Part shown: positions 42,668 through 64,000 of the stretch, piece by piece
Position numbering within the stretch: the first letter of the stretch is position 1
Layout: the number at the start of each line of letters is the position of its first letter
NCBI GenBank assembly: GCA_043820815.1
Contig: JBDRDJ010000004.1
Coordinates: forward strand, 14,956 to 78,955
Direction of reading: 5' to 3'
Length of the DNA: 64,000 bases
From: Candidatus Omnitrophota bacterium
Lineage (GTDB): Bacteria > Omnitrophota > Gorgyraeia > Duberdicusellales > 4484-171
The notes under the pieces: model-generated
The model's input: the letters and a program-made list of their open reading frames with translations, nothing else
Database searches by the model: none
Told to the model about the DNA's origin: nothing
Program-made: the position numbers and the translations under genes

Positions 42668-43369
42668 ATGGTTATGAAATTAAAGAAAAACCCTAAAAAA
42701 GCCCAATCTTTCTTAGAATACTCTTTTCTAATCGCAATAGCCGTTGTAACACTCCTTGCCATGGGTAGTTATTTATCAAGAGGCATGCAGGGCAATTTAA
42801 AACAGCACGTTGACAACTTAGGCGGTGAAAGAGTAACCGGAGATACCTTTACCCCGGGTAAGTGGTATGGCGACGGCGATTTCTCAAATGTGGCAAAAAT
42901 AACCAGCTGGGCTTTTGAATACGAAGGAAGAGAGGGTTTCTCAGTTATGACAGGAGGCATGAAAAGGAGCGATTTAAATAAAATTACAGGAACCGCTAAT
43001 TTAAATGAAGTCCCCGAGGCAAATATTAACTTTGAATCACAGCTTTCCGGAGAGGAAAAAGCCCTTGTCAATTCGGTATTCGGTTCATCGTTTGACCCCG
43101 GCATGGATGTTATGGTTAACAATGTAAATTCTCAAACTCCTCATTTCTCAAGCCCCAACGGCGGCATTGTTGAAATGGGCGAATTTGCCGCAGATAGCTT
43201 AAGTAACCAGGCAGTTGGTATTGTTGAAGAATACGTAACTCAACCTGACATTAACCAGGCTCAGCAGGATATTGAAACATTTAAAAACAACCCTGATTAT
43301 AACCCCGAGGACTTAACAGGTTTAAATTACGATGAATTAAATGTAGATGCAAGTGAGGCAGTCAAATGA
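42668..43369 (+). CDS. Flp/Tad-type pilin-like protein with a long C-terminal extension (i)
   Basis: …NPKKA-QSFLEY-SFLIAIAVVTLLAMGSYLSRGMQGNL; 233 aa. Confidence 0.6.
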   Translation: MVMKLKKNPKKAQSFLEYSFLIAIAVVTLLAMGSYLSRGMQGNLKQHVDNLGGERVTGDTFTPGKWYGDGDFSNVAKITSWAFEYEGREGFSVMTGGMKRSDLNKITGTANLNEVPEANINFESQLSGEEKALVNSVFGSSFDPGMDVMVNNVNSQTPHFSSPNGGIVEMGEFAADSLSNQAVGIVEEYVTQPDINQAQQDIETFKNNPDYNPEDLTGLNYDELNVDASEAVK

Positions 43370-43779
43370 AAACCATAAACAAAAAAGGAAATGCGATAGT
43401 CGAATACAGCGTCTTATTATTTATTGTTATCGGCTTTTTATCAAGCATGCATTATTTTTTAAACCGTCATATCCAGGCCCGCGTGCGCCATGAAACAAAT
43501 CAAAAGGTTCGCCGGCCAATGCCGTTTATATGGCAAAGCTCAGTTGAATTCAGCAGTCAAAAGGCAAACCACGACCGGAAAGAATATGCTTATGGCGATA
43601 CAATTGTTGAATCGGATTTCCAAACGTCTTATACTGTTTTAAGCGCGCCGCCGCCGCCAAAAGTGCCTTTACCAATTGCCAGCCTTCATATCCAGGATGC
43701 GGCAATGCCGGCACCGGGACAGTCAAATCCTGGACATAGACGCATGTCGCATGATGAGGGAACTAACCCTGAGGATTAA
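43366..43779 (+). CDS. TadE/TadF-like minor pilin candidate (j)
   Basis: ATGA overlap with the previous gene; MKTINKKG-NAIVEY-SVLLFIVIGFL…FLNRHIQARV. Confidence 0.5.
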   Translation: MKTINKKGNAIVEYSVLLFIVIGFLSSMHYFLNRHIQARVRHETNQKVRRPMPFIWQSSVEFSSQKANHDRKEYAYGDTIVESDFQTSYTVLSAPPPPKVPLPIASLHIQDAAMPAPGQSNPGHRRMSHDEGTNPED

Positions 43780-43797
43780 TAATTAAAGGAGTATAGA

Positions 43798-44376
43798 ATG
43801 AAAATAGAGTCTGTTAACAAATCACAAGCAATGGTTGAAATGGCTGTTTTAGGCACACTTCTGCTTGTTGCTGTTGGCATTGTTGTAACTTATGTTGCCA
43901 AGCTTAATAATGACCAGTGGGTGCTTATGCAGGCATTTAGAAGTGCCCTTGCTAAAGCTCATGATACAAATGAGATTGTTTCTTACGGAACTTGGGATGA
44001 CCGCAGAATGGCTTCGGTTAGCGAGCCCATTTTAGGCCAGAGAATTACATCAAGCGGTTCAGCAGTTGTTCATTGGTCAATTCCCAGCGTTGAAGGTTCA
44101 GGGGAGAGCCCGCAAGATAAAACTTATGTTAAAGTTAACGGTGGAATGATTCCTAAGCTTTATGAGTATGACCTTGGTTCAGGCCAAAGCGGAGGGGTTG
44201 AACCGATATATATAACAACAAAACATTCAAAAGTAACAATTGATACCCAGAATGATAAAACGCAATCTACCCGTTCAGCAGGAACCGCAGAAGCTATGAT
44301 TTATAAAATTGCAGAGAAAAACTATCCGCAGGCAAGGTATTCCGGAGCCTCACGCACCTTAACCGGAGGAAAGTAA
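43798..44376 (+). CDS. TadE/TadF-like minor pilin candidate (k)
   Basis: AAGGAG RBS; MKIESVNKS-QAMVEM-AVLGTLLLVAVGIVV. Confidence 0.5.
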   Translation: MKIESVNKSQAMVEMAVLGTLLLVAVGIVVTYVAKLNNDQWVLMQAFRSALAKAHDTNEIVSYGTWDDRRMASVSEPILGQRITSSGSAVVHWSIPSVEGSGESPQDKTYVKVNGGMIPKLYEYDLGSGQSGGVEPIYITTKHSKVTIDTQNDKTQSTRSAGTAEAMIYKIAEKNYPQARYSGASRTLTGGK

Positions 44377-44381
44377 GTGTT

Positions 44382-44502
44382 ATATCAAAAATCAAAAATT
44401 AAATATCAAAATGACAATGTAAAAATAAAATTTTTAAGATTGAGTCTAAACATTTTAAATTTTAATTTGTAATTTTGATTTTTGATATTTGATTTTTAAT
44501 TT
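44382..44502. repeat. AT-rich inverted-repeat element without cargo
   Basis: Left arm ATATCAAAAATCAAAA… pairs with right arm …TTTTGATTTTTGATAT. Right arm TTTTAATTTGTAATTTTGATTTTTGATATTTGATTTTT is ~40/43 identical to 45228-45270. Confidence 0.55.
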
Positions 44503-44517
44503 AAAATCGGAGGATAA

Positions 44518-44778
44518 ATGAAAAAGATAAGCTCACAAAGTTTACTTGAATCAGTCTTGGCATTTGCCGCGGCAACGGCGATAATAGGAGCGGCAATGGG
44601 TATTTTCGGCTGGGGCATTGCCCATATTCCCGCACGCCAGGCAACTTATGAGGCAACCCGCGTATTAGCCGGAAGGTCGCGGGGGCGCAATGTCGATGAG
44701 AGAGGCGCTCATGGCGGCGCATACGCAGTCCCGGTTTGGCCGACATACTCAACCGGCGCCGGATTGGCAGCCTACTGA
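44518..44778 (+). CDS. Pilin-like small protein (l)
   Basis: GGAGG RBS; MKKISS-QSLLES-VLAFAAATAIIGAAMGIFGW; GC-richer tail. Confidence 0.45.
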   Translation: MKKISSQSLLESVLAFAAATAIIGAAMGIFGWGIAHIPARQATYEATRVLAGRSRGRNVDERGAHGGAYAVPVWPTYSTGAGLAAY

Positions 44779-48610: not shown

Positions 48611-48717
48611 CTATCACTCCGCGAGTGATAGTACAGGTGAGAAGAAATAATGTTTGAAGAGAAGCTTATTTTATTATAAAATATTAAATATATGTTACTA
48701 TCACTCCGCGAGTGATA
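48611..48717 (+). repeat. Two REP-like hairpins upstream of the RAYT gene
   Basis: CTATCACT-CCGCG-AGTGATAG at 48611-48631 and CTATCACT-CCGCG-AGTGATA at 48698-48717, same orientation. Confidence 0.7.
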
Positions 48718-48759
48718 TATAGGGAGAATGTAATAAAGCGGGAAAGGAAGAGTTTCAAG

Positions 48760-49479
48760 ATGGGGATTAACTACGATACAGGAGTATATCACGTTTTTAA
48801 CAAAAGTATTGCCAGATATACAATATTTTCTCATGAGCTTGAATTTTCCCGATTTATTGAGACGGTTGATTATTATCAATTAAAAGACCCTCCATTACGG
48901 CTATCTTACTATTTAGAGCGCAATAAGCCGCTAGCTTCAGAGGCAAAAAATAGAAAAATAGTTCCCTTAGATAAAATTAGCGATAATAAACTGGTTGAAA
49001 TTATTGCTTATTGTATTATGCCCACTCATTTTCATATTCTTCTTAGAGAACTTTGTGAAGGCGCAGCGAGTGTTTTTATGAGGAGAACTCTCAATAGCTA
49101 CACCCATTATTTTAACAAAAAGAATAAGCGAAAAGGGCCTTTATGGGAAAGCAGGTTTAAGAAAGTGATGGTTGAAAGCGATGAGCAATTAGTTCATTTA
49201 ACCCGCTATATTCATTTAAATCCTGTTACTGCCTATCTTGTGGATAATCCCGCTGATTGGGAATACTCTTCATATAAGCAATATTTAGGTGAAACTTACG
49301 CAAAATGTATCGATTGCCAATTTAATAATCTTTTGGATATTACCCCGCAGTCTTATAAGGAATTTTGCCAAGATTCTATTGCTTATCAGAGAGATTTAGC
49401 TTCTATTAAGAGGTTAACTCTTGAAGGGGAAGCCATACCCATTAAGAAAACTAACAATACATTTTTATCAGTAGGTTAA
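48760..49479 (+). mobile_element. IS200/IS605-like Y1 (HUH) transposase, REP-associated tyrosine transposase (RAYT)-like
   Basis: GVYHVFNKSI, YCIMPTHFHILL (HUH), LTRYIHLNPV, SSYKQY; start taken at MGINYD. Confidence 0.7.
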
Positions 49480-53538: not shown

Positions 53539-54399
53539 ATGGATGCTCCTGTACCAATTTTCTTTGCTTACGGACTGCTTCTGCTATCAATATGCATTAT
53601 CTGCTATTACGGCGTAACATTTCTTCTTAAAAGATTTGACCGCGCCCAGCAAAGCAAAGCCGAGAAAACCGCCGCCCAGTTTGAGGAGATGTTTCTTTTC
53701 TTAAGAAAAGAAGCTCTTATTGTTCTATACATATTTGTGCCTCTTCTTTTAGGCTTAGTCAGTTTTATCGCGACAAAGAAGTGGTGGGTTGCTTTAAGTT
53801 TTGCCTTGGTTGGGGCGTTTTTCCCTTTATGGCTTGTGCGTTTTCTTGAAAGAAGAAGGCAAAATAAATTTGTTATTCAGCTTGTCGATGGGCTTATGAT
53901 CATGAACAGCTGTTTAAAGGGCGGCTTGACATTAATCCAGTCTTTTGAAATCTTAGCAGAGGAAATATCCCCTCCAATGAGCCAGGAAATTATGCTGCTT
54001 AACCGTGAAATTAAAGTAGGTGTTACGCTTGAAGAGGCGCTTCTGAGGCTTAACAACAGGATGCCGTCTGAGGAGATGATACTTATTTCTTCGGCTATTC
54101 TGGTTGCGCGCGAAACAGGAGGCGACTTAACTAAAGTTTTTTCAAGGCTCATCGAGACAATTAGAGACAGGCTTAAGCTAAGGGAGTTGGTTTCAACTCT
54201 TACGCTTCAGGCGCGGCTTCAGGCAATAATAATTTCCCTTCTTGGCCCTGCGTTTTTCTTTATCGTGCGAAAAATAAAACCTGACCATTTTGATATTATG
54301 TGGAAAGATGAGCTTGGAAGGATGATTTTAGGCATCGCGCTTGTGCTTCAGATAATAGGTTTTATATTAATAATTATATTCGGAAAGGTTGAGATTTAA
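53539..54399 (+). CDS. tadB: Tad pilus inner-membrane platform protein TadB (T2SSF family)
   Basis: QLVDGLMIMNSCLKGGLTLIQSF, polytopic; adjacent to tadC. Confidence 0.8.
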   Translation: MDAPVPIFFAYGLLLLSICIICYYGVTFLLKRFDRAQQSKAEKTAAQFEEMFLFLRKEALIVLYIFVPLLLGLVSFIATKKWWVALSFALVGAFFPLWLVRFLERRRQNKFVIQLVDGLMIMNSCLKGGLTLIQSFEILAEEISPPMSQEIMLLNREIKVGVTLEEALLRLNNRMPSEEMILISSAILVARETGGDLTKVFSRLIETIRDRLKLRELVSTLTLQARLQAIIISLLGPAFFFIVRKIKPDHFDIMWKDELGRMILGIALVLQIIGFILIIIFGKVEI

Positions 54400-55277
54400 T
54401 GAGCTTGCTACTTTATATTTTATATGGATTGTTGGTCTTTGGGTTTATCCTGTTTTTCATAGGGCTTTTTCCAAAACCGCCTGATACGGTTTCCATATTT
54501 GGAGATGAGGCAAAAGAAAAGCGGGGTTCGGTACTTTCCCCCATACTTGCGCCCTTTGCGCCGTTTAACAAAATAATTCTTAAGTCATTTCGTTTAGAAG
54601 AGCGCTTAAACAAAAATATTTACCTGGCGCGCTGGAGAGTTACTCCCGCGGAATTTCTCGTAGGCAAAGAGCTGTTGGCTTTGGTTTTTCCCTTGGCCAT
54701 GATTATGTTTAATTTAGGAAATATCTGGTGGCGCCTGGGTGCGGCATTATTTGGTTTTATACTTCCCGATATTATTCTTAACTCAAGGGTGCGCAGGAGA
54801 AAATTCCTGATTAATCGGGTTTTGCCTGAAACAATCGATTTGCTCGGGCTTTGCGTTGGCGCCGGCTTGGATTTTATGGCCGCGGTGCGCTGGGTCGTAG
54901 ATAAAGTAAAAATCAACCCCATGATCGAAGAATTAGGATTGGTGTTAAAAGAAATAAATGTAGGCAAGCCGCGCGTTGAATCTCTTCGCGCAATGGCTAA
55001 GAGAGTTGAAATTCCCGATGTTACTTCATTTGTTAGAATCTTAATTCAGGCAGACCGCATGGGAACTCCTGTTGAGGAAACTTTTAAAATATTATCAGAA
55101 GACACCCGTATGCGCAGGTTTCACCGCGGCGAACGCCAAGCAATGAAAGCCCCTCTAAAAATGCTCATCCCTCTGATTTTCTGTATCCTTCCTGTCATTC
55201 TAATTATCGTAGCCGGCCCCATCCTTATCAGGTTCATGAAAGAAGGCGTATTCGGCCCTGCCGGCCTTGCCAGATAA
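54399..55277 (+). CDS. tadC: Tad pilus inner-membrane platform protein TadC (T2SSF family)
   Basis: LPETIDLLGLCVGAGLDFMAAV, RRFHRGERQAMKAPLKM. Confidence 0.8.
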   Translation: MSLLLYILYGLLVFGFILFFIGLFPKPPDTVSIFGDEAKEKRGSVLSPILAPFAPFNKIILKSFRLEERLNKNIYLARWRVTPAEFLVGKELLALVFPLAMIMFNLGNIWWRLGAALFGFILPDIILNSRVRRRKFLINRVLPETIDLLGLCVGAGLDFMAAVRWVVDKVKINPMIEELGLVLKEINVGKPRVESLRAMAKRVEIPDVTSFVRILIQADRMGTPVEETFKILSEDTRMRRFHRGERQAMKAPLKMLIPLIFCILPVILIIVAGPILIRFMKEGVFGPAGLAR

Positions 55278-55378: not shown

Positions 55379-55996
55379 TTATTTCCCTAAAGGTTTGAAG
55401 GTTGGCATCTTTACTCTTGGCGGGCTATTTTTTGAAGGGAAAATACGTTCTGCCTTAAAAGAAAAAGCAGCCCCACCGATGCCGGCTCTATACGGAGTGC
55501 TTTGCCGGGATTGCGGTGCGGTAAATGTTTTAACAGGGTTTGTTGAGGATGGATTTTTTGCTGGTTGTGATTCAACAGGCGAAGGTGCTAAGGGAATAGG
55601 TTCAGCTGGCTCAATTTCTGCCTTGGCAGGTGTAGGCATACCGCCTGCACCGGGCATTGCGGCTTGAGCTCCTGCGCTTCCAGCGCCGCCGCATCTTTGC
55701 AGAGCGTTCTGGCGAAAACGGGGAAATATAGCGGGTTTGTCATTTTCCGCTCTGCGCACAGCTAATCTGGCAAATAAGCCGCAGCGGCTGCCTTCTCTTT
55801 GGGCAAAGTCTCCCTGGCGAAGCCGGCCTCCACTGAGGCTGGCTGTGCCTCTCTGACGAAAACCTCTGTTTTGAAACACTCCATCAAAAAGCCTGCGGGC
55901 ATGGGCAGTATTTTCCAATAACCCTGCGTTAACAATAACTGCTAAGGCAACAACTGTGAAATATCTCTCTAAAGCTTTTATATTCTGCATTTCCAT
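55379..55996 (-). CDS. Secreted low-complexity Cys-containing protein, paralogue of 61570-62226
   Basis: GAGGT RBS before Met10; signal ending AHA-R; shares G.RCG, RR…KPAIFPRFR and C.GG..GAG motifs with the other copy. Confidence 0.55.
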   Translation of the reverse strand: MEMQNIKALERYFTVVALAVIVNAGLLENTAHARRLFDGVFQNRGFRQRGTASLSGGRLRQGDFAQREGSRCGLFARLAVRRAENDKPAIFPRFRQNALQRCGGAGSAGAQAAMPGAGGMPTPAKAEIEPAEPIPLAPSPVESQPAKNPSSTNPVKTFTAPQSRQSTPYRAGIGGAAFSFKAERIFPSKNSPPRVKMPTFKPLGK

Positions 55997-56239
55997 CCCT
56001 ACCTCTTTTTTATCATTTTTCATTATTTTATAACATGAGAATTGCTTTTTTGCAACCTTATTTTAAAAAAAACTTAGCACATTTCCAGGTGTTAATTTTG
56101 GGTCATTCGTAAATAATGTAAAGATATTTATATAACCCTCGGCATTGTAAGGCATAACAAAAATCTCTTTTTGCGCAGTCTTGACGGGTGTGGGGTCTAT
56201 TTTTGTTATGCCGTAAACCACAAAATTTACGAAAAAATC

Positions 56240-56494
56240 TTAATTTTCAGTACAGAATAAATAAATTAGCAGGTAGAGGGAGCATATTACCAAGGCAGAA
56301 AGCACGTGGCTATACCCTGCTTTGGCAAGCCAGGGAATAAGAACATCGATGTCGAGGATTTTAAAATAGTTCAGATATGCGGGAGTACCCGTTATTAAGG
56401 AAATAATAAATATTATTATAATATGAGCGCAAGCTGAGAAAAAGATGGTTTTAATCAGAGCATCCAAATATCTATTTTTAGCTATTTTCTTCAT
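56240..56494 (-). CDS. Small membrane protein
   Basis: 84 aa with three hydrophobic segments. Confidence 0.4.
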   Translation of the reverse strand: MKKIAKNRYLDALIKTIFFSACAHIIIIFIISLITGTPAYLNYFKILDIDVLIPWLAKAGYSHVLSALVICSLYLLIYLFCTEN

Positions 56495-56652
56495 AAGGAA
56501 ACTATTTTACCATAGATTGTTTTGACTGGCAAGGCCTACCTTAAATGTAAACCCACCTGAAACCATAGCAGTAAGCAATATGGCCGCCGAATATAACAGA
56601 CAACATGTTTATAGTTTGCTGATTATGAGCATGTTACGCATCTATTTGTCCA

Positions 56653-56686
56653 CTTAGGTGGTCAAGTAGAGACTTGACCACCTAAG
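56653..56686. repeat. 14-bp perfect inverted repeat
   Basis: CTTAGGTGGTCAAG-tagaga-CTTGACCACCTAAG. Confidence 0.6.
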
Positions 56687-56689
56687 ACT

Positions 56690-57049
56690 TTCGTGGTGAT
56701 TCGTCTCTAATTCGTGGCAATTCGTGTTAAAAAGAAAGCGTTCTCGCAAATACCCCTAAATCGCCTTGTTTTTTGTTTCGGCGATGTGGTATATTCAAAT
56801 GAATACTTTTGCGAATTGAAGAAATTTTTTTCTGGGGAGACGACAAAGGCATTCTTGTCACAGATTACACAGATTGGATGTTGATTACACAGATGAATAT
56901 CTGTGATTAGGGGTGCAAAGCCACGGACCTAATAGCAAATAGCAAATGGCCTATTGCTTATGGTCAATATAAACCATAAGTTCTAAGCCATTAGCTGTTA
57001 GCCAGGAAAGCCGGGTTGCCGAAATTCCTTCGGTAATCCGGCCTTTTTT
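56690..57049 (+). promoter_or_regulatory. Promoter-leader-terminator module P3 ahead of the 1426-aa gene
   Basis: Four TTCGT direct repeats (56690, 56700, 56711, 56721); box GAAAGCGTTCTCGCAAATAC. TTGTTT 56766-56771, 18 nt, TGgTATATT (56790-56795), N3, ATGA. AAAGCCACGG at 56917-56926; terminator GCCGGGTTGCCGAA-attcc-TTCGGTAATCCGGC + T6 (57010-57049). Confidence 0.55.
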
Positions 57050-57241
57050 ATTGGGATGTAATACATCCCAATAAAAAAGGTCCCGAACGAGTCCGGGGGA
57101 ATTGTCCGAAGGAAAATTACCCCGGTATACAGCGAGGAGGGGCTATTAATAAAATAGATTGATATGATTATAGAAGCGGATATCCGCGGATATAAACGCG
57201 GATTTACGCTTGCTTGATAAAGGGTAAATGGGGAGGCACAT

Positions 57242-60200
57242 ATGAAAAACAGGGGAGTTTTTGGGGGAGTTCTGTGGTTAATTCTATTACTGCTTACTTT
57301 CTCTTTGTTTTTTACAAACGATGTTGAGGCACAGTTATTCCGGGGAAGATTTCGTTCGCAAAGTTACAGTTATTCATCACCAAGCAAGAGTTCAGCGCCT
57401 GCGGCAAATTCTCAATCTCAAAGCACATCACAACCTCAAACACAACCAGGAACTTCCAAACCGGCCCCTAAAACAAATGTAACCCAGGCACAACCCAAAG
57501 CTAATACCCAGAAACCGTTAACAAACCCCATGAGCACTAATAGAAACGCCCCATACGCGATGCATTTACGGGGGACAAACGGTAAAAGTGTAACTTTCTA
57601 TACTCCTGATGCAGGAAAAACATACCGTACGGTTGATGGCTTAAGCCGCAAATCAGGTGCGGTTGCTCCTTCTCAGGTAAGCAATGCCTGGATTTCTTAT
57701 GGTGATAAAGCTAATCCCAACTGGCAGAGAATCACTCCCGATCAAATTTCAAGTTTTCATTTTAATCCTGCTGGTTCAAAAGCCGGAGGTTCTGGAAGCA
57801 TTACATATTATTTTAAGCAAACTCCAAACGGAGGTTATTATCAGGCGGCAAATGGCCAGACCCGCAGGCCTGTAAGCAGTGTAGCCTTACCAGCCCAGAT
57901 GAAAGCATGGGTTGGAACCGGAGATATTAAGAGCCCTAAGTGGCAGAATTTAGGCCAGTATAGCCAGGGGCCTGCAAAGTTAAATTTAGGAAATCTGAAA
58001 GTTACAGGGGCGATTTTTAGAAGTTTAGGCGCTGCCGCAGTTAATCAGGCAAAGCAGGAAATTGCGGCCAAAGCTAACATCACTGACGCAGTTATTTTAG
58101 GAAGCCCTGATTTAGCGCGCCGCTCAGGCTCAGGGATGCTTGAGCTTCGCGTCTGGAATTTAAGGCAGCAGGTTGTTACGGGTTTAGGCAAAGACAGCGG
58201 CCTCTTAGGCGCTGATGGAAGAGGCACATCAGGCATTCAATCTGTTGGGCCTAACTGGCTTGTTTTCAACCATGGCCAGGTGAGCAGAGCATATAAAAGC
58301 ACAGTTGATTGGGGGAGAAAATTGGCTGACAGCTTTGGTGTTCCTAAGGATAGCCCGATAAGAGATGTTTCGTTAGGCGCTTTTGATTGGGCAACAACCG
58401 CCGGTAACCTCGCAGCTGCCCGATTTACTCCCTCGATTCACGCAAAGGGCGTTAAATACGGCGCTTTTACGGATTGGAATTTACCCCACGAAACTACAGT
58501 GGCGGTCAAAACCATATCTCCGGTAAATCAGAACATCCATGTATTAGGGCTTAGCATAAACTCACCACGCATTCATCAAGGCCAGCTTACTTTTACCCAG
58601 CCGGTTTATGATAATCAAAAAAGACTTATTGCCAATCAATTTAAGCCTGTTCTTGAACCTTACCGGGTAGTTGAGAGAATGGTTGCCGGACAATGGGAAG
58701 CTTCAACGGGCCGTATCGGGCCATATACAATTTTTAAAGGCCAAGCTCATAACCCTAATGTTAATGATCTCGGCAAGCTTGTACTTAGCCCTGATAGAAT
58801 TATAATGGAAGGTAAAGGTTGGAAGCAGGATGGTATGATCAGGCCTTCACCCATTGAGGGTTTAAAAGTAATATCAGGCCAGCTTATAATAGCCGGCAAC
58901 AATGGTTTTAACCCTAATACGCACCCCTTATACCGCCAAAACTCAGACATTGAGCCTTTTGTAAAAATCGGTGATACTTTTGTAACCAACACAATTGACC
59001 GCTTTGACCAGGCAATCGGAGTTTTCGGCCAGGGCAGAACCATGCTTTTTGCCCGCCAGAGTGAATTCTCCGTAAATGATAATTCTTTAAAAGGCGATAT
59101 ATATGCCGGCATACCTAAGTCAATAGAAGGATCTTTAAAGAGCATGAAAGTTTACTGGGCGGCAGTTTCTCAAACGCCTATTGCCAAAGATATGCTTCAA
59201 GCCCCCGTAGTTTCACTGGCTAACATCGACCCGGTTAATCCTTTCCCGCAAGGCCAGGCAATACAAGGAATTGATAAAGAACCTTTGCTTTTTGTAAAGC
59301 AAGCTGCTTACAGTATAGATAAGCCCGGTATTGTTACGCAAACACCTTGGGAGTTTACCGGTCGTGCATCACAAACCATTTTTAAAGCCGCCGGTGACAT
59401 AAACGGCCTTAAACAATTTACAGATTTAGCTAAAATAAATACACAATCTCACGCCCCGAAATTAAGCCAGCCCCCGATGCCTGAGCCTGCGCTTGTGCCT
59501 ATTACCCAGACAGATAAGTTTGCATCTTTGGCTGATTTTAATCCTCAATCGTTTGATTTTGCTTCAATCGATGTAAATGCAGAGAAAAAGGATCCCCGCC
59601 TCGATATAATCGCGCCATCATTAGAGAAACTTGAAATCACTTTTCCAAAAATATCAAACGCCTCAGAATATGCTTACGCTGAAGAAACACTGCAAATGTT
59701 TAATGTGCCCGGATACTCTATGGAAAACTTAGATGGCCTTGGGCCAAAACAGGATTTAGTTATAAGCAAGAAATTATTTAATGGCCCTGATATTGAAATA
59801 AAATCACTTGAATTTAAACTATCGCCTTCAGCTGAGCAAATTGAGATTGCGCGCATTGAGAAGATATTTAATGAGCATTTTGCTGCTGAAGAATTACTCG
59901 GGCATCAATCAAGCGCAAGCGCCAGAAGTATTCCAAAACAAGAAATTGATATTGTCGAATCACCGCTGGGGGGCGGTAAGGGAGACCCGCTTTTAGACAG
60001 CAACCCGTTTAATGATATGGCTGATGACCTGAGAGATATGGGAGTTTATCCGGAAAAAGGAAGCAGCCCGGCCGAGTTTTATATAGCAAAACAATTGGCT
60101 TATTTTGTTGCAAAACCGGCTGATTCGGTTAGGGAAATAAGTGAGGCTATCGTATCGAAAGGGGAGGATTACACAGATAAAGTTGTTACAGTAGTATCTC

Positions 60201-61522
60201 AAATAAAAGATTCAGAAACAACCCAGAAAGTTATATCCCAAGCGGCAAAGATAGCTCAGTATAAGCCTGAAAATACCGGCAGCCAAAGTATAATTAAGAG
60301 CCAGTACAGTAAAATACAAAAACCCGGTTTAGGCGGTTTTGGTTCTCAAAAACCCAATGATATGGCGGATTTCAACGCTGACCCGAAGAAGCTGTCAGCC
60401 CAGCTTAATATTGATAGAGCAATGGAGAAGCAAAATCAAAACATGGCCGAACTTGTCAAGGCACAGCAAGAAATATACATAGTTCAGGTTATGAATGTGA
60501 ATACAACCAAGGTGTACGATGTTATTCGTCAAGATGTACCTGTTGGCAATGAAAAATTACGCGGTTATGATATTTTAGACAAAGAAACAGGAAAGTATTC
60601 TCAGGAACTTCCCCAAGGCAGATATGAAGTTATTAGGGTAGTCCGCGGCAGCGCAGAAAACCCAATAGTAGAAAGGAAGGTTTATATAACAACTGACAAA
60701 AGGGTTCATGATTGGATTGACGAGAAAACAACTCTTATGAAACCAGCAGAAATCCAAGTTTGGCTTGAAGGCGCAGGGTGGAAAGCAAGAATCGCCCCAA
60801 TAGTTGAAGCAAGCGGAAACTACAAAAAAGATTCAACCGGACGTATTATAGTTGGCATTGAGGCTTTAACAAATGATGGAAAACCAAAAGGCGACGGCCT
60901 TAAATATGGGGACGATGCCGATGAGATCCTAAAAACAATGCCGCCGGTTGTAAAATCAAAGATTGATATGTATCGAAGCCCTGACATTGTTAATAATAAC
61001 GACCAAGCCTTAAATATCGCTAAAATGTTTGGTTTAGGAAGTGACGCGATGAGGCAGGCAATGGAGAATAATAACGCAGAACGTGTAAGCGCGCATGTAA
61101 ACGCAAGCTATATAACGCCAATCGCAAAGCCAGGCAAAGGAGAACTTTCACCCAGTGAACAGCTGTACGCACAGCAAAAAAACCGCACCCAAGCTGATAT
61201 CGATTTAGAAACAAAGCAAACCATGAATTACTATATTGAACAAGGGATAAAAAGTAAAAAGGCATTTAGTAATATTCTAAGTACTTCTGCAAAAGATTTG
61301 GGGCTTAAAGAGTCAGAATACTATAAGGTAGTTGGCGAAATTTGGTGGAAGAGAGGCGTAAATGAGAAGAACCCGGGGGCATTTGGTTTGACATCTTTTT
61401 ATGGCTGGAAACAAGCTTATTCAGCAGCAAAAGAGAAAATGTCAGGCACCAGTAAGCCTGCTGAAAAGAAATTTACCCAGCAGCCGCCAAGGCCGGCGCC
61501 TATTGGAACGATAATGCCTTAA
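57242..61522 (+). CDS. Large secreted protein of unknown function (1426 aa)
   Basis: GGGGAGG RBS; signal peptide …TNDVEA-QLF; S/Q/P/T-rich linker; no domain recognised. Confidence 0.7.
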   Translation: MKNRGVFGGVLWLILLLLTFSLFFTNDVEAQLFRGRFRSQSYSYSSPSKSSAPAANSQSQSTSQPQTQPGTSKPAPKTNVTQAQPKANTQKPLTNPMSTNRNAPYAMHLRGTNGKSVTFYTPDAGKTYRTVDGLSRKSGAVAPSQVSNAWISYGDKANPNWQRITPDQISSFHFNPAGSKAGGSGSITYYFKQTPNGGYYQAANGQTRRPVSSVALPAQMKAWVGTGDIKSPKWQNLGQYSQGPAKLNLGNLKVTGAIFRSLGAAAVNQAKQEIAAKANITDAVILGSPDLARRSGSGMLELRVWNLRQQVVTGLGKDSGLLGADGRGTSGIQSVGPNWLVFNHGQVSRAYKSTVDWGRKLADSFGVPKDSPIRDVSLGAFDWATTAGNLAAARFTPSIHAKGVKYGAFTDWNLPHETTVAVKTISPVNQNIHVLGLSINSPRIHQGQLTFTQPVYDNQKRLIANQFKPVLEPYRVVERMVAGQWEASTGRIGPYTIFKGQAHNPNVNDLGKLVLSPDRIIMEGKGWKQDGMIRPSPIEGLKVISGQLIIAGNNGFNPNTHPLYRQNSDIEPFVKIGDTFVTNTIDRFDQAIGVFGQGRTMLFARQSEFSVNDNSLKGDIYAGIPKSIEGSLKSMKVYWAAVSQTPIAKDMLQAPVVSLANIDPVNPFPQGQAIQGIDKEPLLFVKQAAYSIDKPGIVTQTPWEFTGRASQTIFKAAGDINGLKQFTDLAKINTQSHAPKLSQPPMPEPALVPITQTDKFASLADFNPQSFDFASIDVNAEKKDPRLDIIAPSLEKLEITFPKISNASEYAYAEETLQMFNVPGYSMENLDGLGPKQDLVISKKLFNGPDIEIKSLEFKLSPSAEQIEIARIEKIFNEHFAAEELLGHQSSASARSIPKQEIDIVESPLGGGKGDPLLDSNPFNDMADDLRDMGVYPEKGSSPAEFYIAKQLAYFVAKPADSVREISEAIVSKGEDYTDKVVTVVSQIKDSETTQKVISQAAKIAQYKPENTGSQSIIKSQYSKIQKPGLGGFGSQKPNDMADFNADPKKLSAQLNIDRAMEKQNQNMAELVKAQQEIYIVQVMNVNTTKVYDVIRQDVPVGNEKLRGYDILDKETGKYSQELPQGRYEVIRVVRGSAENPIVERKVYITTDKRVHDWIDEKTTLMKPAEIQVWLEGAGWKARIAPIVEASGNYKKDSTGRIIVGIEALTNDGKPKGDGLKYGDDADEILKTMPPVVKSKIDMYRSPDIVNNNDQALNIAKMFGLGSDAMRQAMENNNAERVSAHVNASYITPIAKPGKGELSPSEQLYAQQKNRTQADIDLETKQTMNYYIEQGIKSKKAFSNILSTSAKDLGLKESEYYKVVGEIWWKRGVNEKNPGAFGLTSFYGWKQAYSAAKEKMSGTSKPAEKKFTQQPPRPAPIGTIMP

Positions 61523-61569: not shown

Positions 61570-62226
61570 ATGGTTAGAGAACGAAATTTCAGAATAGCGA
61601 TTTTGGTGTTTATTGCCATATGCTTGCTCACAGCGCAAGATGCCCATGCCCGCGAGGGGCGCCTGCTGGGAGGAAGATTAGGCGGCGGCGGGCTATTTAG
61701 CGGCCGCTGCGGCCCGATTAAGAAAATGTCTCTGCGTAGAGAAGCAAGAGGAAAGCCGGCGATTTTTCCCCGCATTCGCGCCGCGGCTTACAGGGATTGT
61801 ATTGGCGGAAGCTGCGGGGCAGGATTAAGCGCAGGTAAGCCCGCGCCCGGTGCATTCTCAGATATGAAGAAAGAGGAAGGCCAGGCTTTTGAGAAAGTTC
61901 CCCTGGCGCTAAAACCAGAATCAACTGCTCGATCTTCAGATAAAGGAGCCGCTACTTCACCGCGTGATAGAAATCCTCTTGTCCAGCAAGAATATAAAGA
62001 AACTATAAAATCACCGGATAGAGGCCCTTCAGCACAGCCAAAACGCCAAACCTGGCCGCAATATCGTGATAACGCAGTTGAGAGAGATTCTCAATCTTAT
62101 GCAAGGCCTTTTATGGGAACTTCGGAATACGGTTCAAAACTTCAAGAATATAGATTGGGCCTGCCAAAAAGTACCCCTTATATAAATAGAGTTAAGCAAG
62201 ATTATCAAAGAACAAGTAACCGATAG
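61570..62226 (+). CDS. Secreted low-complexity Cys-containing protein, paralogue of 55379-55996
   Basis: AAGGTGA RBS; signal ending AHA-R; GRCG, RREARGKPAIFPRIR and CIGGSCGAG motifs. Confidence 0.6.
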   Translation: MVRERNFRIAILVFIAICLLTAQDAHAREGRLLGGRLGGGGLFSGRCGPIKKMSLRREARGKPAIFPRIRAAAYRDCIGGSCGAGLSAGKPAPGAFSDMKKEEGQAFEKVPLALKPESTARSSDKGAATSPRDRNPLVQQEYKETIKSPDRGPSAQPKRQTWPQYRDNAVERDSQSYARPFMGTSEYGSKLQEYRLGLPKSTPYINRVKQDYQRTSNR

Positions 62227-62409: not shown

Positions 62410-62601
62410 GAAAGCGGTTTCACAAATAGGCGATATTTACCTTGCTTTTTTAAGGGCGGATATGGTATACTGACATGAAAGCAAGAGTTCTTTGGATACA
62501 AAAAAAGCCACGGAAAAAACGCGGATAACCGCGGAGGTTAATATGTCCGTGGCAAAACAATTTGAATGATAAAGGGAGGCGATGTGCCTCTCTTTTTTTT
62601 T
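62410..62601 (+). promoter_or_regulatory. Promoter-leader-terminator module P4
   Basis: Box GAAAGCGGTTTCACAAATAG; TTGCTT 62442-62447, 18 nt, TGgTATACT (62466-62471), N3, ATGA. AAAGCCACGG at 62504-62513, with GCCACGGA/TCCGTGGC pairing (62507-62514 / 62546-62553). Terminator GGGAGGC-gatgt-GCCTCTC + T9 (62574-62601). Confidence 0.6.
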
Positions 62602-62629
62602 GATAAGATTGAGGGGAGCAAGGAGGTGT

Positions 62630-64000
62630 ATGATGAAAAGCAAAAGTAAAAACCTAATTATAGCTTTAAATCAAACCAAGCAAGCGCCTTTATTTTTTAT
62701 TAAAATTATATTAATAACAGCTATGCTTTGTTCTTTTTCAACCGATATTTATGCACGTGGTGGAAGTAGACAACCAACCAAGGAAGATCCGATATCAATG
62801 CCAACTCCTCTTTTGCATGATCAGCCATCATCTGTCCCGGCAGTAGTGACAAGAACACCGCTTTCAGTTAATAATCCATCAGCATTTTCGTCACCGACAA
62901 GGCCTTTTATGCCAACAGCACCTTCTCGATCATGGTCGTCTGTAACTGCTCCAGGAACATTGCCAAGAATTCCACAGCCTGTTTCTCCGGCAGTTACAGG
63001 AAATTCGCCGTCTTTATCAAGGCCGGCATTGCCAAGTATGCGGCCTAATTCAAGCGCAGCGCTAACCCACAATATCCAGCCTGTTGCACGAGCTAATTCC
63101 AGCCGATTGACTGCGGTTTCGCCTGTGGTAAATCCACTTACTGCGGTTGTGTCTTCGCCAATGCCATCGGGCCGATTGAATAACCCGACGGCAATAACAG
63201 CTAATAGCCGTCCAAGTTTAACCATGCCTGATTCTTCTGCAAGATTAAGGCCAGAGGTAATTGCAACAACTGCTGTGCCTGCCATGCCGCGAATGCAGGA
63301 TTTTGCAATTCCTGCGGCAGTGCAGCCTCGGCCTCAAGCACAGCGTCCGGCGCTGCAGCCAGTTATAGCAGCAAGAGAACCATTGCAAAGAATGGCAATG
63401 CCAAGAGTTGAGCCAATTCACCGCATCCAGCCGCAAGCAATGGCAGCCATGCCAAGAGTTGCGCCTGTTGAACGAGTTAACCCGCAGATGGCAAATATTC
63501 CAATGCCGAATAGTTTAAGAAACACGCAATACAATCCAAGTTTGCGCCCTCAAATAAATAACTTTGCAATGTTTACCCATGCACAAGCGGCCATTCGTAA
63601 CCATAGTGTTATGAGTAGGTTATCAATTAGCCCAATTTCTCAACCTATTTATAATATCAAGAGCAATTTTGCATCCGCGGCAAATCGTAACGTATCTTTT
63701 AACAATCATTTAAATCAAAGTTTTATAAAAACCGCAAACTTATCGCTGAATTCTCAAAGCGCGTTTAACCCGGCATTTTCTAAAATGGCAAAGTTAAACC
63801 CGCAATTGGCGCCGCGTAATAATTATAAATTAAATAATACTGCGCAATTAAATGCTGCCTTTAAACCTTCATTCGCCGGTTTAAGCGATGTTTCTCTAAG
63901 GCCGATAAAACAACCAGCATCTTTAGCTGTGCAAAAGCCGCTTATGCCGGGAAGTTTAAACGCGAGCCTTATGCGATTTACATATCTCTCTAAGAATTTA
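62630..64000 (+). CDS. Secreted Pro/Ala/Ser-rich protein, 3' end beyond the window (absent from the ORF track)
   Basis: AGGAGG RBS 62621-62626, ATGATG start, signal peptide LFFIKIILITAMLCSFSTDIYA. I translated 457 codons by eye to the window end without a stop; contains repeats MPRVEP/MPRVAP. Confidence 0.65.
   Translation, partial: MMKSKSKNLIIALNQTKQAPLFFIKIILITAMLCSFSTDIYARGGSRQPTKEDPISMPTPLLHDQPSSVPAVVTRTPLSVNNPSAFSSPTRPFMPTAPSRSWSSVTAPGTLPRIPQPVSPAVTGNSPSLSRPALPSMRPNSSAALTHNIQPVARANSSRLTAVSPVVNPLTAVVSSPMPSGRLNNPTAITANSRPSLTMPDSSARLRPEVIATTAVPAMPRMQDFAIPAAVQPRPQAQRPALQPVIAAREPLQRMAMPRVEPIHRIQPQAMAAMPRVAPVERVNPQMANIPMPNSLRNTQYNPSLRPQINNFAMFTHAQAAIRNHSVMSRLSISPISQPIYNIKSNFASAANRNVSFNNHLNQSFIKTANLSLNSQSAFNPAFSKMAKLNPQLAPRNNYKLNNTAQLNAAFKPSFAGLSDVSLRPIKQPASLAVQKPLMPGSLNASLMRFTYLSKNL

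What the first reader, a model, noticed from the sequence alone, without database searches (positions are those of the whole stretch)
56690..57241. P3: 450-nt regulatory region before the giant gene, with helically phased TTCGT repeats, an intrinsic terminator and GCGGAT repeats
Seen upstream of the -35: four direct TTCGT(G/C)(G/T) repeats at 56690, 56700, 56711 and 56721 (10-11 nt phasing), then the shared box. Seen in the leader: three GATTACACAGAT-like repeats with a CACAGAT/ATCTGTG hairpin, AAAGCCACGG, and a strong terminator at 57010-57049. The 5' arm of that terminator (CCGGGTTGCCGAA) is identical to the P2 hairpin arm. A 19-bp perfect palindrome, CCTTTTTTATTGGGATGTA/TACATCCCAATAAAAAAGG, lies at 57042-57080. 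Three GCGGAT(A/T)T repeats follow at 57176, 57186 and 57198, the first forming the palindrome GCGGATATCCGC. Inference: phased repeats suggest a response-regulator-type activator site. Because the terminator sits 190 nt before the start codon, expression of the 1426-aa gene requires read-through or a second promoter that I could not find.
Basis: partly seen in the sequence, partly recalled or inferred. Interest (0 to 1): 0.55.

Follow-up and report, generated by a model that had tools for sequence, protein, structure and literature searches.

The report
Expanded c-di-GMP riboswitch before giant gene
The "regulatory region" is mostly the leader of a known kind of RNA switch (a class I cyclic-di-GMP riboswitch with a built-in terminator) that probably turns on a 1426-aa secreted protein of an uncultivated Omnitrophota bacterium when the second messenger rises; the upstream TTCGT repeats are real but unexplained.

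Summary
The phased TTCGT array is far from chance. Window 56834-57029 is a GEMM-I (c-di-GMP-I clan) aptamer. The CACAGAT/ATCTGTG hairpin is its first hairpin. AAAGCCACGG is the AAA linker plus the 5' strand of the second hairpin. CCGGGTTGCCGAA is the 3' strand of that hairpin, the ligand-pairing C, and the closing helix. That last segment is also the 5' arm of the terminator (57010-57049), so folded aptamer and terminator exclude each other. This is the classic ligand-ON, transcription-read-through design. The ligand-contacting positions (G20, A47, C92 equivalents) are canonical for c-di-GMP. Both hairpins carry large insertions, so the element scores below Rfam's threshold. The window holds two more copies (19930, 39888); the second precedes a battery of Flp/Tad pilins. 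The host is an Omnitrophota MAG and the giant protein is an ORFan. Three things remain unexplained: the TTCGT array, a palindromic box 16 nt upstream of the -35, and the 190-nt distal leader. Verdict: a new member of a known kind, of moderate interest.

The parts
56653..56686 (.). 15-bp perfect inverted repeat CTTAGGTGGTCAAGT-AGAG-ACTTGACCACCTAAG directly upstream of the TTCGT array. Role unknown; no usable T-run on either strand.
   Evidence: I4; no other copy in the window
56690..56725 (+). Four TTCGT units at 10-11 nt phase, equal to two 15-mers 21 nt apart. They lie about -112 to -77 from the inferred start site. Candidate protein-binding array, function not established.
   Evidence: (D3)
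56734..56749 (+). Shared box GAAAGCGTTCTCGCAA, an imperfect copy of the palindrome GAAAGC|GCTTTC, ending 16 nt upstream of the -35.
   Evidence: Same box and same 16-nt spacing at window 62410 and in Omnitrophota loci L008, L009 and L014; 25 nt at 39801.
56766..56795 (+). Promoter: TTGTTT, 18 nt, TATATT, preceded by TGG (extended -10). The start site is inferred near 56802.
   Evidence: Read. Exact TGGTATAYT occurs only three times in the window, each behind a shared box. The start site is inferred, not measured.
56834..57029 (+). GEMM-I (c-di-GMP-I clan) aptamer. Closing helix 56834-56838/57025-57029 and 56841-56842/57020-57021. Junction 56843-56848, with the G20 equivalent at G56848. First hairpin 56849-56916, a 17-bp stem plus a 33-nt apical region holding the CACAGAT copies. 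AAA linker 56917-56919, with the A47 equivalent at A56917. Second hairpin 56919-57017, with a roughly 70-nt repeat-built extension. C92 equivalent at C57019.
57010..57049 (+). Intrinsic terminator (expression platform). The 5' arm 57010-57023 overlaps the second hairpin's 3' strand, C57019 and the closing helix. The 3' arm is 57029-57042 and the U-tract is 57044-57049.
57042..57080 (.). 19-bp perfect palindrome. It joins the T-run of the plus-strand terminator to the A-run that serves as the T-run of a minus-strand terminator-like hairpin. Role unknown.
   Evidence: I2; no other copy in the window
57082..57097 (-). Terminator-like hairpin on the minus strand, CCCGGACTCGTTCGGG followed by ACCTTTTTTA. 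It faces the riboswitch terminator.
57174..57211 (+). GCGGAT repeats, which form an imperfect hairpin AAGCGGATATCCGCG / CGCGGATTTACGCTT. The 15-mer GCGGATAWCCGCGGA recurs exactly once more, in another leader at 62521.
   Evidence: (I11)
57231..57244 (+). Shine-Dalgarno GGGGAGG and the ATG of the giant gene.
57242..61522 (+). 1426-aa ORF with an N-terminal signal-like hydrophobic segment. No Pfam domain and no close relative in the databases searched; this is the regulated gene.

Best explanation
The leader of the giant gene is a class I cyclic-di-GMP (GEMM-I) riboswitch that works as a transcriptional ON switch.

1. Transcription starts at the TTGTTT-18-TGGTATATT promoter, near 56802.
2. The nascent RNA can fold into the aptamer at 56834-57029: two hairpins joined by AAA and closed by a short helix.
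3. If c-di-GMP is bound, the segment 57010-57029 stays locked in the aptamer. That segment holds the 3' strand of the second hairpin, C57019 and the closing helix. The terminator then cannot form, and RNA polymerase reads on into the 1426-aa secreted-protein gene.
4. Without ligand, the more stable terminator (57010-57042 plus U-tract) displaces the base of the aptamer. A short RNA of about 250 nt is released.

Shown here: the membership-type evidence, the overlap geometry and the folding energies. Inferred: the identity of the ligand, the direction of the switch in vivo and the start site.

The upstream TTCGT array and the palindromic box probably add protein-level control of the promoter. 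That is a separate and untested layer.
For: Rfam, independent of this window.
- The window's two sub-threshold leaders match the GEMM-I clan over the full model: 56839-57024 at 21.9 bits, E 0.011, and 39891-40053 at 26 bits, E 5e-4. These E-values are for a search of all 4227 families.
- A third copy at 19930-20084 passes the c-di-GMP-I gathering score, 36.5 against 35.

The shared sequence is the GEMM-I core.
- A scan of 185,579 species genomes for CAAAGCCACGG-N70-100-CCGGGTTGCCGAA returned 16 loci in five phyla.
- Rfam called above-threshold c-di-GMP-I or c-di-GMP-I-GGC aptamers in 14 of those 16 loci.

A covariance model built only from 16 outside aptamers.
- 95.8% of its cells are paired, all six pairs of the first hairpin covary, and 0 of 500 shuffles reach the observed score.
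- In the window it finds exactly three sites: 39888-40058 at 45.9 bits, 56836-57029 at 35.1 bits (E 2e-10) and 19928-20008 at 23.5 bits. The next hit has E 0.44.

A motif not used to pick the loci.
- CGAYAAAGGY occurs 5 times against 0.5 expected. Three of the five sit at the 5' ends of the three aptamers.

Core positions match the Rfam c-di-GMP-I consensus AAaGGC...GACGCAAAgCcAcgG...AGCcggGcUgCCgaa.
- By alignment the G20, A47 and C92 equivalents are G56848, A56917 and C57019.
- G20 and C92 are described as ligand contacts in PMC6140456. The role of A47 is from my own knowledge.
- The AAA linker is present; it is reported as invariant in 320 of 322 GEMMs (PMC1950547).

Compensatory difference between the two paralogous leaders: the closing pair of the first hairpin is C-G in leader 3 and U-A in leader 2.

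Switch geometry and energies.
- The terminator's 5' arm is aptamer sequence.
- The full leader with the aptamer enforced folds at -66.8 kcal/mol, against -81.5 with the terminator.
- Before the 3' arm is made, the aptamer fold is within 1.8 kcal/mol of the optimum. It is within 4.6 kcal/mol when folding starts from the inferred start site.
- Leader 2 shows the same logic.

Precedent for the design.
- Among the 11 lower-GC loci inspected, 10 carry a downstream hairpin plus T-run whose 5' arm uses this aptamer 3' segment: L001, L003, L004, L005, L007, L008, L009, L012, L013 and L014. Four of them use most of the segment; in L008 and L009 the stem assignment is ambiguous.
- The design was described for 78 of 322 GEMMs in 2007.
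- It was shown experimentally for Bc2/cap in Bacillus thuringiensis (PMC4933901).

Gene context fits the family.
- The locus is a Tad pilus cluster: RcpC, secretin, TadZ-TadA, TadA, Flp-like pilins, TadE/G and TadB/TadC.
- Related Omnitrophota riboswitches precede Flp pilin batteries (L008, L009) and a secreted protein of more than 1334 aa (L012).
Against: - The element does not reach Rfam's gathering score (21.9 bits against 59 for RF03167; the RF01051 match was lower and suppressed).
- The first hairpin lacks both the GNRA tetraloop and the usual AAA/GAC internal loop. It carries a 47-52 nt insertion with three alternative CACAGAT registers. The second hairpin has two mismatches and an 8x8 internal loop above its base. 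Binding competence is therefore not guaranteed.
- Some annotated c-di-GMP-I riboswitches do not regulate. Bc1 is one example, and some C. difficile copies are others.
- My covariance model is partly circular. Its training loci were picked with a 24-nt pattern taken from this window, so its E-values are inflated.
- No orthologous leader exists, because the downstream protein is an ORFan. The insertions specific to this copy cannot be tested by covariation.
- No diguanylate cyclase or phosphodiesterase turned up among the window ORFs scanned against Pfam.
- The 190 nt after the terminator are not explained by the riboswitch.
Confidence: 0.75

Rival explanations
1. Decayed aptamer. The sequence descends from a GEMM-I riboswitch but no longer binds ligand. 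The terminator is then a constitutive attenuator, and the giant gene is expressed by leaky read-through or from a second promoter in the distal leader.
For: - The Rfam score is below threshold.
- The first hairpin is heavily remodelled, with duplicated CACAGAT segments and no tetraloop or AAA/GAC loop.
- There is a weak promoter-like site at 57126-57155.
- Non-responsive class I riboswitches are documented.
Against: - All core nucleotides are intact and identical in two paralogous leaders whose peripheral parts have diverged completely. These are the junction, G20, the AAA linker, the base of the second hairpin, C92 and the closing helix.
- The extended closing helix is kept by different sequences: GGGGA/UUCCU here and GGGAG/CUCUC in leader 2.
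- About half of GEMMs naturally lack the tetraloop receptor.
- Enlarged first hairpins occur in copies that pass the threshold (L005 and L007).
Confidence: 0.13
2. Same switch, different ligand. The aptamer senses 3',3'-cGAMP or another cyclic dinucleotide rather than c-di-GMP.
For: - GEMM-I relatives with altered specificity exist, for example GEMM-Ib in Geobacter.
- The best Rfam match is to the variant family c-di-GMP-I-GGC, whose ligand I could not look up.
Against: - The cGAMP class has A at the G20 position. Here it is G56848.
- Comparison of the two consensus lines suggests the GGC variant differs from the parent class at the first linker base, GCGAAg against GCAAAg. Here that base is A, as in the parent class. 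What 'GGC' refers to is my reading of the consensus lines, not a checked statement.
Confidence: 0.06
3. First reader's model. Expression is governed mainly by a response-regulator-type activator bound to the phased TTCGT repeats, with the terminator overcome by an unknown factor or bypassed by a second promoter.
For: - The array is highly non-random. It has the geometry of tandem direct-repeat sites: 10-11 nt phase and two 15-mers 21 nt apart, on one face of the helix, upstream of the -35.
- A conserved palindromic box sits between the array and the -35.
Against: - No such array exists at the two other promoters with the same box and -10 (39801 and 62410), nor in 16 related riboswitch loci.
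- No response regulator was found among the window ORFs scanned against Pfam.
- Metagenomic TTCGT arrays sit next to unrelated, often housekeeping genes, sometimes in divergent or convergent pairs. They do not define a regulon.
- The terminator problem is already solved by the riboswitch.
- This model can coexist with the riboswitch as a second layer of control.
Confidence: 0.25

Closest known systems
Bc2 riboswitch upstream of cap (collagen adhesion protein), Bacillus thuringiensis (PMC4933901)
   Same: A class I c-di-GMP aptamer followed by an intrinsic terminator. Ligand binding prevents the terminator and gives read-through (genetic ON). The regulated gene is a large surface or adhesion protein.
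   Different: - Bc2 is compact and its terminator directly adjoins the ORF.
- Here both hairpins carry 50-70 nt insertions.
- The score is below the Rfam threshold.
- 190 nt of further structured leader follow the terminator.
- The host is an Omnitrophota MAG.
- Nothing here has been tested experimentally.
Vc2 (Vibrio cholerae), the structural reference for c-di-GMP-I (PDB 3IRW; numbering as in PMC6140456)
   Same: - The junction G (G20), the AAA linker (A47) and the C before the closing helix (C92) are conserved by alignment.
- The fold is two hairpins plus a closing helix.
   Different: - Vc2 has a GAAA tetraloop docking into an 11-nt receptor. Leader 3 has neither, whereas leader 1 of this window has both.
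- Vc2 does not act through a terminator.
Cdi-2-4 (class II c-di-GMP riboswitch) upstream of pilA1, Clostridioides difficile (PMC6366702)
   Same: c-di-GMP ON switch by terminator avoidance, controlling pilin genes and adhesion. This is the same biological logic as leader 2 of this window (Flp pilins) and probably leader 3.
   Different: A different aptamer class (class II, an unrelated fold), and type IVa rather than Tad/Flp pili.
Bc1 riboswitch with a long expression platform, Bacillus cereus group (PMC11218506)
   Same: A class I aptamer followed by an unusually long, structured expression platform containing more than one terminator-like element and a protein-binding DNA site.
   Different: - Bc1 has two same-strand terminators.
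- Here the second terminator-like hairpin is on the opposite strand, linked by a 19-bp palindrome.
- No binding protein is known here.
GEMM-Ib 3',3'-cGAMP riboswitches of Geobacter
   Same: The same fold, often ON switches with terminators, upstream of extracellular or surface proteins.
   Different: They have A at the G20 position. Leader 3 has G.

Membership tests
c-di-GMP-I / GEMM-I riboswitch (Rfam RF01051, clan CL00126) | Full-length match to the family covariance model at or above the curated gathering score | tested here: not met
   - The best clan match over 56839-57024 is 21.9 bits, E 0.011, to RF03167 (gathering score 59). The RF01051 match was lower and suppressed.
- The shortfall coincides with the large insertions in both hairpins.
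- A sister copy at 19930-20084 does pass: 36.5 against 35.
c-di-GMP-I / GEMM-I riboswitch (Rfam RF01051, clan CL00126) | Two adjacent hairpins joined by AAA and closed by a short helix | tested here: met
   - The model alignment covers positions 1-82 of 82, and only two aligned pairs are non-standard.
- The AAA linker is at 56917-56919.
- The constrained fold keeps all helices.
c-di-GMP-I / GEMM-I riboswitch (Rfam RF01051, clan CL00126) | Ligand-contacting nucleotides G20, A47 and C92 (Vc2 numbering) | tested here: met
   - By alignment to the Rfam consensus they are G56848, A56917 and C57019.
- The roles of G20 and C92 come from PMC6140456.
- The role of A47 is from my own knowledge.
c-di-GMP-I / GEMM-I riboswitch (Rfam RF01051, clan CL00126) | GNRA tetraloop on the first hairpin with a receptor in the second (present in about half of members) | tested here: not met
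   - The apical loop is GAAU or a 33-nt region, and there is no CCUAAG...UAUGG receptor.
- This is not obligatory for the family.
c-di-GMP-I / GEMM-I riboswitch (Rfam RF01051, clan CL00126) | 5' regulatory position, with a terminator whose 5' arm overlaps the 3' side of the second hairpin | tested here: met
   - The terminator 57010-57042 overlaps 57011-57021 of the aptamer.
- The gene starts at 57242 on the same strand.
c-di-GMP-I / GEMM-I riboswitch (Rfam RF01051, clan CL00126) | Binds c-di-GMP and changes gene expression | not testable with these tools
   Needs in-line probing or ITC, and transcription termination or reporter assays.
c-di-GMP-I-GGC variant (Rfam RF03167) | Variant nucleotide in the linker. 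The model consensus reads GCGAAg where c-di-GMP-I reads GCAAAg. | tested here: not met
   - Leader 3 reads GCAAAG, like the parent class.
- The score of 21.9 is far below the gathering score of 59.
- What 'GGC' stands for is my inference from the consensus lines; the defining paper could not be retrieved.
GEMM-Ib 3',3'-cGAMP riboswitch | A in place of G20 | tested here: not met
   G56848.
Intrinsic (rho-independent) terminator | G+C-rich stem-loop immediately followed by a U-tract | tested here: met
   A 14-pair stem with 8 G-C pairs, a 5-nt loop, then CUUUUUUAUU. The hairpin alone folds at -24.5 kcal/mol. In vivo termination was not tested.
Response-regulator (OmpR/PhoB- or LytTR-type) direct-repeat binding site | Tandem direct repeats at about one helical turn, upstream of or overlapping the -35, with a cognate regulator and recurrence at co-regulated promoters | tested here: inconclusive
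   - The geometry is met.
- No recurrence was found in the window or in related loci.
- No regulator gene was found among the window ORFs scanned against Pfam.
- Metagenomic arrays have heterogeneous contexts.

The most novel reading that the evidence does not exclude
The riboswitch may be only the middle layer of a three-layer control region specific to Omnitrophota adhesion genes.

1. A promoter module: the palindromic GAAAGC|GCTTTC box centred near -62, with fixed 16-nt spacing to the -35 in four genomes, here augmented by a phased TTCGT array. This would bind one or two undescribed transcription factors.
2. The expanded GEMM-I ON switch.
3. The 190-nt distal leader: face-to-face terminators joined by a 19-bp palindrome, plus the GCGGATAWCCGCGGA element shared exactly with a second, riboswitch-less leader at 62521. 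This would be an undescribed cis-regulatory element, either a protein- or RNA-binding site or a short antisense RNA running from the minus-strand TATAAT at 57167-57172 to the minus-strand terminator at 57082-57097.
Probability: 0.2. Interest if true: 0.55.

Novelty: new member of a known kind. Interest (0 to 1): 0.35.

Why it matters
Omnitrophota are uncultivated, mostly ultra-small bacteria. They are thought to attach to or prey on other cells using pili and very large, poorly conserved surface proteins. How those genes are controlled is unknown. The Omnitrophota survey I read (PMC10066038) does not mention c-di-GMP. The only papers in the searchable library that pair 'Omnitrophota' with 'riboswitch' are the ComFB study and its preprint, which do not connect the two.

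If this reading is right, c-di-GMP directly switches on three targets in one 64-kb stretch: a battery of Flp/Tad pilins, a 1426-aa ORFan secreted protein, and a small secreted protein. The same riboswitch-to-pilin and riboswitch-to-giant-protein pairings appear in other Omnitrophota genomes. That gives a testable handle on the attachment programme of an uncultured phylum, because the RNA can be assayed in vitro without the organism.

There is also a practical point. Two of the three copies fall below Rfam's thresholds because of large insertions built from repeats. Riboswitch censuses in such lineages probably undercount.

Tried and rejected
1. Orthologous leaders through the giant protein were impossible to obtain. 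The protein matches only itself among 5.8 billion clustered proteins. It has one weak partial relative among 1.8 billion representatives (P0002, 32% identity over about 270 aa). The exact-sequence contig look-up found nothing.
2. Pfam gave no domain for the giant protein or for its neighbours at 55379-56023, 56240-56494 and 61570-62226.
3. cGAMP specificity was considered because I first misread the junction as having A at the G20 position. Aligning to the model consensus showed G there.
4. Membership of the GGC variant was rejected on the linker base.
5. The TTCGT array as a recurring regulon motif led nowhere. Many hits are plain 5- or 10-nt tandem repeats. The roughly 50 loci with non-tandem arrays share (A)TTCGTG-N3-4, but their flanking ORFs look unrelated by eye (ArgJ-, Pgk-, RpoA-, GatC- and RtcB-like, and so on). 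Orientations vary, with divergent pairs in L122 and L128 and a convergent pair in L120. I did not run family searches on those ORFs.
6. A second structured RNA family in the distal leader or in leader 4 was not found. Rfam E-value scans gave only chance-level miRNA- or sRNA-like hairpin matches.
7. A leader peptide was considered. A 17-codon ORF (57164-57217, MIIEADIRGYKRGFTLA) spans the GCGGAT repeats, but it has no Shine-Dalgarno sequence at a usable distance. I judged it unlikely from the sequence alone.
8. Homology between the distal leader and leader 4 beyond the 15-mer and TGATAAAGGG was not supported; the pairwise alignment was unconvincing.
9. The paper defining the GGC variant (Weinberg et al. 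2017, PNAS) could not be retrieved.
Full report
**What is there.** I read window 56400-57400. Every item in the finding is at the stated coordinates.
- Four TTCGT units start at 56690, 56700, 56711 and 56721.
- The box GAAAGCGTTCTCGCAA is at 56734.
- A promoter reads TTGTTT-18-TATATT and is preceded by TGG (56766-56795).
- Three CACAGAT copies lie opposite one ATCTGTG.
- AAAGCCACGG is at 56917.
- A 14-pair hairpin at 57010-57042 is followed by CTTTTTTATT.
- A 19-bp perfect palindrome spans 57042-57080.
- GCGGAT starts at 57176, 57186 and 57198.
- A Shine-Dalgarno sequence precedes the ATG at 57242 of a 1426-aa ORF.

The TTCGT array is not chance. It is the only four-fold 5-mer array at 10-11 nt phase in 64 kb, and none of 200 dinucleotide shuffles produced one. 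The leader as a whole folds with z = -9.5.

**What the leader is.** A gathering-threshold Rfam scan of the whole window found one c-di-GMP-I riboswitch at 19930-20084 (36.5 bits, threshold 35) and nothing at the finding. An E-value scan of 56600-57300 gave a full-length match to the same clan at 56839-57024 (c-di-GMP-I-GGC, 21.9 bits, E 0.011).

- ACGA(C/U)AAAGG is the 5' closing strand plus the junction.
- The CACAGAT/ATCTGTG hairpin is the first hairpin.
- GCAAAGCCACGG is the closing pair of that hairpin, the AAA linker and the 5' strand of the second hairpin.
- CCGGGUUGCCGAA is the 3' strand of the second hairpin, two junction bases and the 3' closing strand.

The low scores come with a 47-nt insertion in the first hairpin and a roughly 70-nt insertion in the second.

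**Is the shared sequence really GEMM-I?** I scanned one genome per bacterial and archaeal species for CAAAGCCACGG-N70-100-CCGGGTTGCCGAA. Sixteen loci came back from Omnitrophota, Planctomycetota, Armatimonadota, Elusimicrobia and Chloroflexota. Rfam called c-di-GMP-I or c-di-GMP-I-GGC aptamers above its own thresholds in 14 of them (40-73 bits). A long second hairpin is common.

The Rfam c-di-GMP-I consensus is uaaugaaAAaGGCAAAc...GACGCAAAgCcAcgG...GacAGCcggGcUgCCgaa. Leader 3 reads GACGACAAAGGCAUUC...GGUGCAAAGCCACGG...GGAAAGCCGGGUUGCCGAA.

**A second model.** I built a covariance model from 16 aptamers of those outside loci, with none from the window and with the second-hairpin insert trimmed. 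On that set the structure is well supported. 95.8% of cells are paired, all six pairs of the first hairpin have changes on both sides, and 0 of 500 shuffles reach the observed covariation.

Searched over the whole window on both strands, the model finds three sites and nothing else below E 0.4:
- 39888-40058 at 45.9 bits
- 56836-57029 at 35.1 bits, E 2e-10
- 19928-20008 at 23.5 bits

Caveat: the training loci were chosen with a 24-nt pattern taken from this window, so those columns score by construction and the E-values are inflated. Two checks are free of that bias. The Rfam matches are one. The other is the junction motif CGAYAAAGGY, which was not part of the pattern. It occurs five times in the window against 0.5 expected, and three of the five sit at the 5' ends of the three aptamers on the right strand.

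**Ligand.** In the Vc2 reference structure, G20 reads one guanine of c-di-GMP and C92 pairs with the other. cGAMP-sensing relatives have A at position 20 (PMC6140456). A47 intercalates between the two bases (my own knowledge). By alignment these positions are G56848, A56917 and C57019, all canonical for c-di-GMP.

The best-scoring Rfam family is the GGC variant. Its consensus differs from the parent at the first linker base (GCGAAg against GCAAAg), and leader 3 has the parent's A. I therefore file the element under the clan and not under the variant. The variant's defining paper could not be retrieved.

**How it most likely works.**
- The terminator's 5' arm (57010-57023) is the aptamer's second-hairpin 3' strand (57011-57017), G57018, C57019 and the closing strand (57020-57021).
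- An extended closing helix, GGGGA 56834-56838 with UUCCU 57025-57029, also uses the terminator loop and the first base of its 3' arm.
- Aptamer and terminator are therefore mutually exclusive.

| Fold (kcal/mol) | Aptamer enforced | Optimum |
|---|---|---|
| Leader 3, complete leader (56830-57052), | -66.8 | -81.5 (terminator forms) |
| Leader 3, transcript ending at 57026, | -59.1 | -60.9 |
| Leader 3, same end, from inferred start 56803, | -62.6 | -67.2 |
| Leader 2, complete, | -51.8 | -65.8 |

This is the expected landscape for a kinetically controlled ON switch. Ligand captured during transcription holds the aptamer and lets the polymerase pass. Otherwise the terminator wins.

The same overlap, in full or in part, is visible in 10 of the 11 lower-GC outside loci I inspected: L001, L003, L004, L005, L007, L008, L009, L012, L013 and L014. 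In L008 and L009 the stem assignment is ambiguous. The design was noted for 78 of 322 GEMMs in the paper that defined the motif, with exactly this prediction (PMC1950547). It was demonstrated for Bc2/cap in B. thuringiensis (PMC4933901). The direction and the ligand are inferred here, not shown.

**Unusual features of this copy.**
- The first hairpin is a 17-bp stem with one bulge, capped by a 33-nt region. It has no GNRA tetraloop and no AAA/GAC internal loop.
- The ATCTGTG strand could pair with any of three CACAGAT copies. An Omnitrophota relative (L001) has CACAGA as the simple loop of a six-pair first hairpin, so the leader-3 form looks like an expansion of that type. This is inference.
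- The second hairpin's extension contains a 7-nt tandem repeat, AATAGCA. Extensions built of short repeats are also seen in L003, L004, L007 and L016.
- From the inferred start site, the 5' end of the transcript (56807-56813) can pair with the closing strand and junction in the unconstrained fold. This is a possible anti-aptamer helix, with no further evidence.

**Context.** The giant protein is annotated as a hypothetical protein of a Candidatus Omnitrophota MAG. It is alone in its cluster among 5.8 billion sequences. An exhaustive HMMER search found one weak partial relative. It has no Pfam domain.

The surrounding genes are a Tad pilus locus:
- RcpC/CpaB at 32229
- secretin at 33165
- a TadZ-TadA fusion at 34795
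- a second TadA at 36972
- after riboswitch 2, about ten Flp-type pilins with the ...(A/G)QS(I/T)LEY motif at 40106-44778
- a TadE/G-like protein at 45264
- TadB and TadC at 53539-55277
- riboswitch 3 and the giant gene

In other Omnitrophota the same aptamer precedes Flp pilin batteries (L008 and L009), a secreted protein of more than 1334 aa (L012) and other secreted proteins (L001, L004, L013). This fits the family's known association with pili, adhesion and surface proteins. It also fits the proposal that Omnitrophota use pili and large, poorly conserved proteins for attachment (PMC10066038).

**What remains unexplained.**
1. The TTCGT array (56690-56725) and the adjacent 15-bp perfect inverted repeat (56653-56686).
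   - The array has the geometry of a tandem direct-repeat regulator site, but it is unique in the window and absent from the 16 related loci.
It returned many plain tandem repeats plus about 50 loci with variable-spacer (A)TTCGTG arrays.
   - The neighbours of those arrays look unrelated and their orientations vary. No regulon emerges.
2. The shared box is an imperfect copy of the palindrome GAAAGC|GCTTTC.
   - It ends exactly 16 nt before the -35 at 56734, at a third window promoter (62410), and in L008, L009 and L014. At 39801 the gap is 25 nt.
   - Exact TGGTATAYT occurs only at these three window promoters.
   - A centre near -62 is where class I activators bind (general knowledge). The protein is unknown.
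3. The distal 190 nt.
   - The palindrome links the riboswitch terminator's T-run to the A-run of a minus-strand terminator-like hairpin at 57082-57097.
   - A minus-strand TTTATA-18-TATAAT (57196-57167, 10 of 12) could drive a short antisense RNA ending there. That is speculation.
   - The 15-mer GCGGATAWCCGCGGA recurs exactly once, at 62521 in the leader of the third box promoter. That leader has its own terminator and no Rfam match.
   - Only a weak plus-strand promoter-like site lies in this stretch (57126-57155, 9 of 12).

**Verdict.** But it missed the organising principle, which is an expanded class I c-di-GMP riboswitch acting as a terminator-based ON switch. That is a known kind of element in a new host and gene context, and it lies below database thresholds. 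The protein-level layer and the distal leader are open leads.

Noticed in passing
window 39888-40095: Second sub-threshold GEMM-I aptamer (Rfam 26 bits; my model 45.9 bits). A perfect 15-bp-arm terminator overlaps its 3' half. It sits directly before a battery of about ten Flp/Tad-type pilin genes (40106-44778). The logic is the same as at the finding.
   Followed up: yes
window 19928-20130: Third GEMM-I copy, with a GAAA tetraloop and a canonical CCUAAG...UAUGG receptor. Rfam gives two competing alignments: c-di-GMP-I over 19930-20084 (36.5 bits, passes threshold) and c-di-GMP-I-GGC over 19931-20003 (35.8 bits). A terminator at 20097-20130 follows.
   Followed up: partly
window 13317-13427, 20148-20258, 33037-33158: A roughly 110-nt repeat (96% identical between the first two copies) lies directly upstream of three ORFs: 13417, the 113-aa ORF at 20264, and the secretin gene at 33165. 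It contains the hairpin CGTCCGCCTGTGGCGGAC and ends in CTCATTGAAGGAGG. In leader 1 it sits between the riboswitch terminator and the start codon. It may be a conserved leader or promoter module; its function is unknown.
   Followed up: no
window 62410-62640: A third promoter has the same palindromic box, the same 16-nt spacing and the same TGGTATACT. Its roughly 150-nt leader has a GCCACGG...CCGUGGC hairpin enclosing CGCGGAUAACCGCG, then a terminator (about 62575-62605), then an RBS and ATG at 62632. It matches no Rfam family. It shares the exact 15-mer GCGGATAWCCGCGGA and TGATAAAGGG with the distal leader of the finding.
   Followed up: partly
L008 7434, L009 7374 (minus strand), L014 733 (minus strand); window 56734, 62410, 39801: The palindromic box GAAAGC|GCTTTC lies at a fixed 16 nt upstream of the -35 of riboswitch-bearing promoters in several Omnitrophota genomes. 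It is a candidate binding site for a phylum-level transcription factor.
   Followed up: partly
L003, L004, L007, L016 (second-hairpin inserts) and window 56927-57010: The long extensions of the second GEMM-I hairpin in several phyla are built from short (7-8 nt) tandem repeats on one or both arms. They look like slippage-driven expansion segments.
   Followed up: no
window 2964-3276: The group I intron (Rfam 88 bits, 2982-3221) interrupts the anticodon loop of a tRNA-Tyr(GUA) that ARAGORN did not call. I read the exons by eye. The 212-aa ORF at 2362-3000, which abuts the 5' exon, has a LAGLIDADG-like motif by eye but no Pfam hit.
   Followed up: partly
L017-L136 (metagenome contigs): Arrays of (A)TTCGTG with variable 3-4 nt spacers at 10-11 nt phase occur in dozens of unrelated environmental contigs. 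Some form back-to-back divergent pairs around an ACGAATTCGT palindrome (L122) or lie 1.2 kb apart in convergent orientation (L120). Their nature is unknown.
   Followed up: partly
window 48712-49479: An IS200-like Y1 transposase gene lies inside the Tad region.
   Followed up: no
window 38294-39739: A 481-aa ORF with a helix-turn-helix-like N-terminus (by eye) and no Pfam domain lies immediately upstream of the riboswitch-2 promoter. It is a candidate locus regulator.
   Followed up: no
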